From assembly GCA_964252035.1 (NCBI GenBank), contig OZ176211.1: a DNA stretch of 64,000 bases; one strand, 5' to 3'. A program made the position numbers. Below, in pieces: positions 60,001-64,000 of the stretch; position 1 is the stretch's first letter, and the number at the start of each line of letters is the position of its first letter. The stretch comes from Podarcis erhardii (taxonomy: Eukaryota).

Positions 60001-63000
60001 CTTACACTATCACGTGTTTGTTCTGTTGTGTCGTTTCCCCCTTGTTACACACTCCTGAGCAGTGTGAAGTTTCAGCAATCCCAGCACTAACCTTGGGGTT
60101 GGTTCTCTTGGAATGAAGATAAATGAGACTGGTAGTATTTTTATGACATAATGTTTATTTACACACATACACAGGCTGAGCACATTAGCTTTCTAGGAGA
60201 ACCACCCCTCCCATGCCCTAGCATTGGATTTTTATGCAGAGCAAGTCAGGTCTCTGTGCCCTTTCAAGACAGCCTGGCTGACCCATTGATCACATCACAT
60301 CCAGACAAGGGAAGGATAAAGAAACCCTATCCAGAAAGGTCTCTGTCCATTTGCTTCTGCAGCAACAAATCATTTGCACAAGATCAACTCTTTACTTATG
60401 CAAAGGCCCATTTTCACAACAAAACAGAGTATATCAGGCTAAGCTTCTTCACTTAGCTTGACTTGCTTAAACATCCCTCGTTCTGTGAAACTGAACCTCA
60501 CAGCTCTATAACAACAGTATTGGAGAGGATCCCCAAAATCCCATTCCGTCTAATCCCAATTTCTCTGTCGCTTTTGTATACTTGAAAAGAACAATACATG
60601 CATTGATGTTTTCCCCACCCAAATATGAATAGTCTGAATCTGAATAGTAAAAAAGCATTTAAATGTTATAAAGGGCAAATATTCTTATTGGGACAATGCA
60701 TGGTGGAAAAGATCCCTGCTGTTGTGCTTCAATCTTTGAAACACTGGGACTTGTGAGTTAATTTTATGGTTGCTGTTGCTGTAACTTTTATAGTTCCATT
60801 TCGGTTTGTAATTATGTTCACCTTTTTTGGCAGGGAGTGCTGAAGAGAATAAAATTATGTATTCAAATACGCACCACCAGTGGTCATTGACTTTTTAAGC
60901 AAGCATTTTAGGTGTTAGCCAAGTGTTCATCCTTACACAGTTATTTAGGCAAAAGAAAGATCAAGCATGCCCTGGCAGATCTTGGAGGACCTGCGACAAG
61001 GGCTTCTGAATGATGCCCAGTCATTTAACAACAGAAAGAATAAAAAAAGGCGGCCACCCTCTCAAAACAAAAATAAAACACGGCTTTGAGATTCCCTGCA
61101 GTACAGCGTGTGCGCGGCGCGTGGTTGGCGGGGAGGGTGGTGGGCGAGACGATTGACGTCTCGGGCAGCCAGTCGAGGAAAGGGACGTTGCCACAGATGC
61201 GTCCCTCCCCTTCGGGAGGGCGGTGCTTTTAGGAGGAACCCCCCGCCGAGGAATGGCGGTGAAGGAGGCGCCTGCCTTTGTTGACGGAAGTCTCCTAGCA
61301 ACAGGAGGCCTCTGGTCCCTCCGGTCTCCATGGCAACCACGCCGCGCTTGTTCTCCGGCGGCGGCGGCGGCGGCGGCACCTGCGAGGGTCGCAGAGGAAG
61401 AATCCGGAAGCGGCTCGGCTCGGTCGGTCGGGGAACGAAGGGCGGCGAAGGAGCCTCGGGCTTGGTGCCCCCGCCTTGTTTCTGGTCCAGGTCGCCTGAC
61501 TGCTGTCCCCGAGGGGCCTCCGCGGATCCAGCTCAGCCCGGGATAAGGAGAACCGGGACTGCGTGGCCACAGATACTTGTGTGTGTGCATTTATATAGCC
61601 GTTCCTCATCTTCCTGAAGGTATCCAAGCGGGGGCCTGGCCAGCACCCCCTTTTCCTCAGCCAGTGACGGGTGGGTGGGTGGGTGGATGCTTAGGGAGCA
61701 CCCGTCTCGCAACTGGGCTCTTGCACCCATCATCATCCCCTGTCCTTTTAGCTAAACCAGAAAACCATAGCCATGAAATTGCCAGCAACTGCATCGTGCT
61801 ATGAAGCAACAGGTGTAGAGAACGAAATTCTAGGTTACTGCTAGTGATTTTGTTGTTACTAGTCCTCTCTCTTGCCTTGCTCATTATGGTTTTATATATA
61901 TCTTTACTAAGCTTCTTTTCTGAATGCTGATCCTTGACTGTCCTAAAGAGATTGGCTGGTATTTAGAACAGTGGTCGTCTTCAGCCTTTTCAGACCCAGG
62001 AGAGAGCTTTTGCCCCAACACAACATGTGTTTGGGGATCCACTTCTTAATTACACTTAATTTGCTATTTATTCTGGAGGGGTGGTGTGCTTGTTATGAGC
62101 CAGCCTTCGGCCAGTTGTGACCCAGCAGTAGTTCCTGAACCACTAGTTGAAGATTAATTTTTTGGATAATTTGGAGAAGGAACCCCCTACAAATGGTTGT
62201 TGTTGGTTTTTTTTGTGGTGGTGACTTGAATTTTGCCCACTTTGGTTATCAGTTCCCAAGTCCATGGTTGATTGTACTTTGCTATAACAAATGCTGGGTT
62301 TTCTTACCTTTTAAAAAAAGCTTTAGAATGGGAAGACCCACGTTCAGTTCCCAGCTCAACCTGAAGTTCAGTAACTTGGGTTGCCATATTTCAAAAAGTA
62401 AAATTCCCGACACCCGCAAAGTTGCTCCCCCCAAAATAGGGGAGGTTTTGGAGCTGTTTCCACTGCTTTTTCCATTGCATTGCCATACATCCAGGGCTTC
62501 CCCTGACATTTTGCCGATTTGGCAATGTTCCCGCCTGACGCCATTTTTACAGCCGAAAGCTGGGACATGTCAGGAATTTTCCTGACATATGGCAAGTCTA
62601 TCACTGCTTTTGTGTGATAATGACATCCTGTGCATTAGGTGCAAAAAAAAGCAGACCTGTGTGTTTAAAAACTGCGGAGAAGAGCGCAGGGCAAAATCCC
62701 CGGGGCAGCAGAGAGAGAGCAGGCACGATGGAGATGTACAGCAAGGCAGAGACGCTGGAGCTGCGGAAGAAGCACATCGGGCCCTCGTGCAAGGTCTTCT
62801 TTGCTAAGGACCCCATTAAGATTGTGTGTGCCCATGGGCAGTACATGTTTGATGAGAATGGAGAAAAATACTTGGACTGCATTAACAACGTAGCACATGT
62901 TGGACACAGCCATCCAGATGTGGTCAAGGCTGCGGTGAAACAGATGGAGTTACTCAACACCAATTCTCTCTTCCTGCACGACACTCTGGTCCAGTATGCC

Positions 63001-64000
63001 AAGTGTCTCACTGCGACCCTCCCAGAGCCTCTCTCTGTTTGCTACTTTGTGAACTCTGGATCTGAAGCAAATGATCTCGCTTTGCGCCTGGCCCGCCAAT
63101 ACAGGGGCCACCTTGACCATGCTTATCACGGCCATGTTACATCGCTAATTGACACTTGACCATGCTTATCACGGCCATGTTACATCGCTAATTGACATCA
63201 GTCCATATAAGTTTAATCACCTGGGGAAAGAGGCCAAAAAGGAATTTGTACATGTGGCTCCTTCACCAGATATATACAGAGGAAAATATAGAGAGGACCA
63301 TTCAGACCCAGGAAGCGCTTATGCCGATGATGTGAAGAAGATAATTGAAGAGGCTCAGAAGAACGGCCGCAAGATTGCAGCCTTTATTGCTGAGTCCATG
63401 CAGAGTTGCGGAGGCCAAGTAATTCCACCTGCAGGCTATTTCCAGAAAGTGGCAGACACTGTCCACAAAGTGGGTGGAGTTTTCATAGCCGATGAAGTCC
63501 AGGTCGGTTTTGGTCGAGTTGGAAAAAAATTCTGGGGATTCCAGCTACAAGGCAAAGACTTTGTGCCTGACATTGTCACTATGGGGAAGCCAGTTGGCAA
63601 TGGCCATCCCATGTCTTGTGTAGTTACCACCAGAGAGAGCGCGGAAGCTTTTGGTGCCTCTGGCTGGAGTACTTCAATACGTTTGGGGGCAACCCAGTGT
63701 CCTGTGCAATTGGACTGGCTGTTTTGGACGTGATAGAAAAAGAAGATCTCCAAGGGAATGCCACACGTGTTGGAAACTATCTCACTGGACTACTGAAGGA
63801 ACAAAAAGAAAAGCATCCACTGGTGGGAGATGTCAGAGGTGTTGGTTTGTTTGTTGGAGTGGATCTTGTGAAGGATCGACAAAAGAGAACGCCTGCCACT
63901 GCTGAGGCCCAGCATATTATCTACAAGCTGAAAGAACAGAGGATTCTTCTTAGTGCTGATGGACCTTATCGAAACATCTTGAAATTTAAGCCACCCATGT

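What the first reader, a model, noticed from the sequence alone, without database searches (positions are those of the whole stretch)
62672..64000. ETNPPL retrocopy inserted ~1 kb behind the RFX promoter, in the same orientation
Seen: an intronless ETNPPL with ~55 nt of GC-rich 5' UTR-like leader, starting right after a TT/AAAAA site (62665-62671). A weak acceptor (cattag|G, 62637-38) lies upstream. Established: ETNPPL is multi-exon and not syntenic with MPP7 in human; TT/AAAA is the L1 endonuclease target. Inference: an L1-made retrocopy landed in the presumed first intron of ODAD2, where it can be transcribed from a cilia/testis promoter. It could form chimeric transcripts, act as a gene trap if it brought its poly(A) signal, or make a 143-aa truncated peptide (62728-63159). 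A lineage-specific insertion here could affect a motile-cilia gene.
Basis: partly seen in the sequence, partly recalled or inferred. Interest (0 to 1): 0.66.

Follow-up and report, generated by a model that had tools for sequence, protein, structure and literature searches.

The report
Broken intronless ETNPPL copy (processed pseudogene)
This is an intron-free, mRNA-derived copy of the enzyme gene ETNPPL in what looks like a reptile genome, sitting about 1 kb behind a CpG-island promoter and already broken in three places, so it is most likely an ordinary dead retrocopy.

Summary
From the ATG at 62728 to the window end, 1272 nt read collinearly with residues 1-415 of human ETNPPL (PDB 6tor). 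All 3 of 3 frame pieces hit it best, at E 5.8e-74, 5.7e-92 and 1.6e-59. There is no room for an intron. A 56-nt, 66% GC leader follows TTAAAAA at 62665-62671.

The copy is broken in three places:
- a 5-residue in-frame gap after 63111;
- a perfect 43-bp tandem duplication (63112-63197) that shifts the frame and gives TGA at 63157-63159;
- one missing base at 63664/63665.

It is therefore best read as a processed pseudogene.

The context is partly confirmed. A MAGUK p55 gene (MPP7 by recall) runs on the + strand and ends at 38006. A CpG island with one X-box match lies at 61.0-61.6 kb. No ODAD2 exon is in the window, so "first intron of ODAD2" remains inference.

L1 authorship is untested. The poly(A) tail and target-site duplication lie beyond 64000, and TTAAAA is common here (99 + strand sites). 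The window is not human: SINEs with CR1-type tails point to a reptile.

This is an ordinary feature of low interest.

The parts
62665..62671 (+). TTAAAAA directly before the leader. It is a possible L1-type endonuclease target and the start of a target-site duplication.
   Evidence: The motif is common: 99 + strand TTAAAA in the window, and P about 0.089 per 60 nt. It is weak evidence on its own.
62672..62727 (+). 5' leader, UTR-like: 56 nt, 66% GC, 4 CpG.
   Evidence: GC jumps from 34% in the preceding 64 nt. The true 5' end of the insert cannot be fixed without the parent mRNA.
62728..63111 (+). Coding piece 1, from the ATG to the point where 5 residues are missing compared with the solved homologues.
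   Evidence: 6tor_A residues 3-148, E 5.8e-74. The same 5-residue gap appears against 6tor_A and 5g4i_A. Pfam Aminotran_3 positions 11-110.
63112..63197 (+). Perfect tandem duplication, 2.0 copies of 43 nt. It shifts the frame by +1 and creates TGA at 63157-63159. TTGAC sits near both ends of the unit.
   Evidence: TRF: 100% matches, score 172. Self-BLAST: 43 of 43. Units printed.
63155..63664 (+). Coding piece 2, in the second frame. It includes the conserved TMGKP stretch.
   Evidence: 6tor_A residues 134-307, E 5.7e-92. Pfam positions 123-284.
63664..63665 (+). Site of a single missing base. The frame changes between the codons for ...GASG and LEYFNT....
   Evidence: The three frames of 63640-63696 are printed. 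The alignments overlap here.
63665..63999 (+). Coding piece 3, in the third frame. It runs off the window at the equivalent of human residue 415 of 499.
   Evidence: 6tor_A residues 298-415, E 1.6e-59. Pfam positions 287-384.
61001..61600 (.). CpG island, a presumed promoter. GC is 54-69% and CpG observed/expected is 0.86-0.99. It holds a (CGG)7 run at 61356-61377.
61324..61337 (+). X-box-like palindrome GTCTCCATGGCAAC, the only match in the window to the recalled RFX consensus.
   Evidence: 1 match, 0.51 expected, 33 of 100 shuffles with at least 1.

Best explanation
This is a processed pseudogene. A spliced ETNPPL mRNA, carrying its 5' leader and start codon, was reverse-transcribed and inserted about 1.07 kb downstream of a CpG-island promoter, in a genome that looks like a non-avian reptile's. 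The insertion was most likely made by a LINE enzyme that accepts polyadenylated RNA, that is, an L1-type enzyme. The copy has since gained three lesions: loss of 5 residues from a conserved block, a 43-bp slippage duplication, and a 1-nt deletion. It therefore cannot make the PLP enzyme.

Shown: the intronless collinear coding sequence, the lesions, and the neighbourhood.
Inferred: the RNA intermediate, the L1-type enzyme, the ODAD2 identity of the promoter, and the intronic position.

The most likely present role is none. At most it is passive intronic sequence that is transcribed and spliced out.
For: - 3 of 3 frame pieces hit human ETNPPL best and in order. All 3 pass the Pfam Aminotran_3 cut-off in consecutive profile positions.
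- The length balance leaves no room for an intron.
- A perfect 43-bp duplication gives the TGA.
- A 5-residue gap appears against both the human and the bacterial solved homologues.
- The frame changes at 63664/63665.
- Composition steps sharply at 62672, and TTAAAAA lies just before it.
- The flanks are unrelated to ETNPPL: a MAGUK p55 gene at 9.9-38.0 kb and a CpG island.
- In a survey of Anolis, 187 of 404 retrocopies were disabled. Retrocopy number tracked LINE1 number across non-mammalian chordates, not CR1 (passages of PMC3136929).
Against: - The 3' end is outside the window, so no poly(A) tail or target-site duplication was seen.
- No parent gene was available. That the parent has introns in this species rests on recall of vertebrate ETNPPL, and the copy's age is unknown.
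- TTAAAA is common (99 + strand sites).
- No L1 sequence was seen in the window. The only interspersed family found has a CR1-type tail, and CR1 is thought to make few retrocopies (passages).
- Apart from the three lesions the reading frames hold no stop, and by my hand count they are about 80% identical to the human protein. A recently functional or still polymorphic copy is therefore not excluded.
Confidence: 0.8

Rival explanations
1. It is a functional or recently functional retrogene. The frame breaks are assembly errors or one allele, and the copy is expressed from the nearby promoter.
For: - The start codon, leader and conserved TMGKP stretch are kept.
- There are no stops within the three pieces other than the one made by the frameshift.
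- In lizard, 217 of 404 retrocopies were intact (passage of PMC3136929).
- The two units of the duplication are 100% identical, as expected for a very recent event or an artefact.
Against: - Three independent lesions would all need explaining away.
- The 5-residue in-frame gap removes part of a block conserved from bacteria to human.
- By my recollection of class III aminotransferases, that block is a core strand.
- Pfam profile positions 111-122 are unmatched.
Confidence: 0.06
2. It is a retrocopy, but not made by L1 at this spot. Either another reverse transcriptase made it (LTR element or CR1-type), or it is a DNA-level duplicate of an older retrocopy.
For: - No L1 was seen in the window.
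- CR1-tailed SINEs are the only mobile family detected.
- The TTAAAA site could be chance.
Against: - CR1 enzymes are reported to need their own 3' end, so they make few retrocopies (passages).
- The copy starts next to an A-rich site and shows a sharp composition step.
Confidence: 0.1
3. It is an assembly artefact: a cDNA or a foreign piece joined to this locus at about 62672.
For: - Composition steps abruptly at 62672.
- The far junction is not visible.
Against: - There is no N run at the junction. The only one is at 19319-19448.
- A duplication, a deletion and an in-frame gap are what genomic decay gives, not what a cDNA carries.
Confidence: 0.04

Closest known systems
L1-type processed pseudogenes (retrocopies) of vertebrate genes
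   Same: It is an intronless copy of a gene that I recall as multi-exon, with a leader and start codon. It lies in an unrelated neighbourhood, next to a TT/AAAA site, and is disabled by frameshifts.
   Different: The poly(A) tail and the target-site duplication could not be seen. The host looks like a reptile, where such copies are far fewer than in mammals: 404 in Anolis against 4738 in human (passage of PMC3136929).
ETNPPL (ethanolamine-phosphate phospho-lyase, PDB 6tor), a class III aminotransferase-fold PLP enzyme
   Same: It is collinear with residues 1-415, about 80% identical by my hand count of the printed alignments. The next best solved protein, a bacterial phospholyase (5g4i), scores only E 3.2e-25 to 1.8e-23.
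   Different: The frame is broken twice, 5 conserved residues are missing, and the last 84 or so residues lie outside the window. It is a relic of the gene, not a working member.
Intronic retrocopies that form chimeric transcripts or gene traps with their host gene
   Same: It lies in the same orientation as the upstream gene and, by inference, as the gene driven by the CpG island, about 1 kb behind that island.
   Different: No host exon, splice junction, poly(A) signal or transcript evidence is available. There is no AATAAA or ATTAAA in the in-window part of the copy.

Membership tests
Processed pseudogene / retrocopy | Lacks the introns of the parent gene | tested here: met
   1272 nt are collinear with 415 residues of 6tor_A and the length balances fully. 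That the parent has introns in this species is recalled, not tested.
Processed pseudogene / retrocopy | Poly(A) tract at the 3' end | not testable with these tools
   The copy runs off the window at 64000, at the equivalent of residue 415 of 499.
Processed pseudogene / retrocopy | Target-site duplication flanking the insert | not testable with these tools
   Only the 5' side is in the window. The candidate starts at 62667.
Processed pseudogene / retrocopy | L1 endonuclease-type target (TT/AAAA) at the junction | tested here: inconclusive
   It is present at 62665-62671. However, TTAAAA occurs 99 times on the + strand, and P is about 0.089 for any 60 nt.
Processed pseudogene / retrocopy | Disabling mutations (for the word pseudogene) | tested here: met
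   A 43-bp duplication with TGA, a 1-nt loss and a 5-residue gap.
ETNPPL, class III aminotransferase fold | Aminotran_3 domain and best match to ETNPPL | tested here: met
   3 of 3 pieces score above the Pfam cut-off (62.9, 97.6 and 75.5 bits against 30.5). 6tor_A is the best hit for 3 of 3.
ETNPPL, class III aminotransferase fold | One open frame through the PLP-binding domain | tested here: not met
   Three frames are needed, and a stop falls at 63157-63159.
RFX-driven ODAD2 (ARMC4) promoter | X-box in a CpG-island promoter | tested here: inconclusive
   There is one consensus match at 61324-61337 inside the island, but 33 of 100 shuffles give at least one match. The consensus is recalled.
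RFX-driven ODAD2 (ARMC4) promoter | ODAD2 exons downstream on the same strand | not testable with these tools
   No ODAD2 exon lies in 61.6-64.0 kb (ORFs). The gene order is recalled from human. Armc4 falls in Rfx2-null mouse testis (passages of PMC4498915 and PMC4745085).

The most novel reading that the evidence does not exclude
A young, lineage-specific ETNPPL retrocopy in a reptile is transcribed from the RFX-type cilia/testis promoter 1 kb upstream. It is spliced into, or ends, transcripts of the downstream cilia gene. That would make it a natural gene trap or the seed of a new chimeric gene, and it would mark recent L1-type activity in a genome dominated by CR1-type elements.
Probability: 0.05. 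Interest if true: 0.4.

Novelty: new member of a known kind. Interest (0 to 1): 0.12.

Why it matters
It matters little in itself, because dead retrocopies in introns are common. It could serve as a presence/absence marker for the lineage. It could also be a small data point on which LINE enzymes copy cellular mRNAs in reptiles. For annotation it is a warning: gene finders may call a false 143-aa or ETNPPL-like gene here, or mis-join it to the neighbouring cilia gene.

Tried and rejected
- **Whole-frame Pfam scan.** I tried to scan whole + strand frames of 51-61 kb. I then found stop-free ORFs by script and scanned ten of them. 7 of 10 matched a family at E up to 0.01. 6 were at or above the curated cut-off: L27, SH3 and four Guanylate_kin. 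PDZ was below it, and 3 gave nothing.
- **PDB search with the L27-exon ORF.** 0 hits.
- **Rfam at gathering thresholds and ARAGORN.** 0 hits each, so neither helped to name the SINEs.
- **Paper searches.** 'ETNPPL' with 'retrocopy' gave 0 papers. 'ETNPPL' with 'processed pseudogene' gave 7 papers, 5 listed. Judged from the listing alone, none is about an ETNPPL copy.
- **Human origin of the window, rejected.** Self-BLAST gave only 32 repeat pairs and no Alu-like family. The one SINE family has a CR1-type (ATTCTATG)n tail. The ETNPPL copy is only about 80% identical to the human protein.
- **Alternative splicing as the cause of the 5-residue gap.** I could not test it without the parent gene.
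- **Not used.** Structure prediction, complex prediction and atlas searches, because the family assignment was already unambiguous.

Full report
**What is there.** The stretch was read directly. An ATG at 62728 opens a frame of 143 codons that ends in TGA at 63157-63159. Two further frames carry the reading on: 63152-63733, and 63571 to the window end.

Each piece was searched on its own. The pieces were never joined, so there is no score for a whole read-through protein. All 3 of 3 pieces have the human ethanolamine-phosphate phospho-lyase chain 6tor_A as best solved relative:
- residues 3-148, E 5.8e-74;
- residues 134-307, E 5.7e-92;
- residues 298-415, E 1.6e-59.

The next best is a bacterial phospholyase (5g4i_A), at E 3.2e-25, 1.1e-24 and 1.8e-23. 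All 3 pieces pass the Pfam Aminotran_3 cut-off, at profile positions 11-110, 123-284 and 287-384 of 403. My hand count on the printed alignments gives roughly 80% identity to the human chain. This is a count by eye, not a tool figure.

**Intronless.** From 62728 to 63999 there are 1272 nt. This equals 415 human codons (1245 nt), adjusted as follows:
- minus 3 nt, because the copy is one residue shorter at the N-terminus;
- minus 15 nt for a 5-residue gap;
- plus 3 nt for one extra residue in piece 2;
- plus 43 nt for the duplication;
- minus 1 nt for the single-base loss.

Nothing is left over for an intron. That vertebrate ETNPPL has many exons, and lies on another chromosome than MPP7/ODAD2 in human, is my recollection. 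No tool here could test it.

**The lesions.**
1. After the codons for ...RGH (ending at 63111), 5 residues are missing. They are present in both the human and the bacterial solved homologues, and Pfam profile positions 111-122 are unmatched. By my knowledge of class III aminotransferases this block is a core strand that follows the helix with the SGSEA motif. That point is inference.
2. 63112-63197 is a tandem duplication of a 43-nt unit: 2.0 copies, 100% matches, and 43 of 43 in self-BLAST. TTGAC sits near both ends of the unit, as expected for slippage. The duplication shifts the frame and creates the TGA.
3. At 63664/63665 one base is missing. The frame moves between ...GASG and LEYFNT....

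The stretch TMGKP is kept. By recall it carries the PLP-binding lysine. It lies beyond the first stop, so the 143-aa product could not be an enzyme.

**The 5' junction.** The 56 nt before the ATG are 66% GC with 4 CpG. The 64 nt before those are 34% GC. TTAAAAA lies at 62665-62671.

In target-primed reverse transcription the duplicated target starts at the A run, and the insert begins some 7-20 nt later.

The motif proves little, however. TTAAAA occurs 190 times on both strands, against 120.8 expected, and 0 of 100 shuffles reach 190. 99 of these are on the + strand. The chance of at least one in any 60 nt is about 0.089. The poly(A) tail, the poly(A) signal and the second copy of the duplication lie beyond the window. 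There is no AATAAA or ATTAAA in the in-window part of the copy.

**The neighbourhood.** The window holds one N run, 19319-19448, which was left alone.

A CpG island spans about 61001-61600, with GC 54-69% and CpG observed/expected 0.86-0.99. It holds a (CGG)7 run. It also holds the window's only match to the recalled X-box consensus, GTCTCCATGGCAAC at 61324-61337. Only 0.51 matches are expected, yet 33 of 100 shuffles give at least one. The copy starts 1335 nt after the X-box and 1072 nt after the island.

Upstream, stop-free + strand ORFs that hold exons were picked by script with short recalled motifs. 7 of 10 matched a family:
- L27 (9903-10256);
- PDZ (12419-12589), below the cut-off;
- SH3 (13222-13479);
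- Guanylate_kin four times (33002-33238, 35286-35471, 35934-36182, 37830-38006).

Three ORFs gave nothing: 11736-11849, 25783-26001 and 31580-31672. The SH3 ORF's best solved relative is MAGUK p55 member 5, at E 4.1e-19.

So a MAGUK p55 gene ends at 38006 on the + strand. Calling it MPP7, and expecting ODAD2 next on the same strand, rests on my recall of the human locus. No ODAD2 exon was found in 61.6-62.7 kb (ORFs).

Two mouse studies report that Armc4 (ODAD2) falls in Rfx2-null testis (passages of PMC4498915 and PMC4745085). Their supplementary tables, which may list binding sites, were not open to me.

**The host genome.** I do not take this window for human. Self-BLAST finds only 32 repeat pairs and no Alu-like family. 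Rfam at gathering thresholds and ARAGORN find nothing.

The one interspersed family lies at 8643-8767 (- strand), 28952-29083 and 32914-33045, with a fragment at 34659-34711. It has a tRNA-like head and a tail ending in ATTCTATG repeats. I recognise that tail, from memory, as the CR1-type 3' end seen in reptile SINEs. A non-avian reptile is my best guess, and no tool here could name the species.

This bears on mechanism. In a survey of non-mammalian chordates, Anolis had 404 retrocopies (217 intact, 187 disabled), chicken 78 and human 4738. Numbers tracked LINE1 copies, not CR1 (passages of PMC3136929). The review PMC5470649 says the same of CR1 (passages).

**Verdict.** The object is a retrocopy of ETNPPL that is already disabled. 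It is a processed pseudogene, an ordinary kind of sequence.

- The L1-type origin is the best-supported mechanism, but it is inferred.
- The ODAD2-intron placement is plausible but unseen.
- The proposed effects on a cilia gene have no support in the sequence.

I did not score splice sites.

**What stayed unchecked.**
- The parent gene.
- The copy's age and dN/dS.
- The orthologous site in related species.
- Transcription.
- Read support for the lesions.

Two searches found no paper on an ETNPPL retrocopy. This covers only the held library.

Noticed in passing
window 8643-8767 (-), 28952-29083 (+), 32914-33045 (+), fragment 34659-34711: A SINE family of about 130 nt, with a tRNA-like head and a CR1-type tail ending in ATTCTATG repeats. 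Copies are 80-85% alike. It points to a reptile host, although the family name is not established.
   Followed up: partly
window 33637-34126: A GC-rich tandem array: 119-nt unit, 4.1 copies, 83% matches. The unit is itself partly palindromic, with inverted self-matches. It lies in an intron of the MAGUK gene just after a guanylate-kinase exon. This 2-kb bin has the highest CpG observed/expected ratio (0.5) outside the promoter island.
   Followed up: partly
window 62381-62595: An element of about 215 nt with inverted ends (13-nt arms, 92%; a second pair of 16 nt, 88%). It lies just upstream of the retrocopy and is possibly a small non-autonomous DNA transposon.
   Followed up: no
window 57648-57743 and 57948-58042: An inverted repeat pair of about 95 nt, 90% identical, with about 200 nt between the arms.
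   Followed up: no
window 61290-61302 and 61619-61621: By eye: a second X-box-like site with a 1-nt spacer, 34 nt before the consensus match, and a donor-like AAG|GTATCC just past the CpG island that could end a first exon.
   Followed up: no
window 9903-38006 (+): The 3' half of a MAGUK p55 gene (L27, PDZ, SH3 and guanylate-kinase exons), MPP7 by recall. Its coding end is at 38006, leaving about 23 kb to the CpG island.
   Followed up: yes
window 19319-19448: A run of 130 N, the only one in the window. It was left as it is.
   Followed up: no
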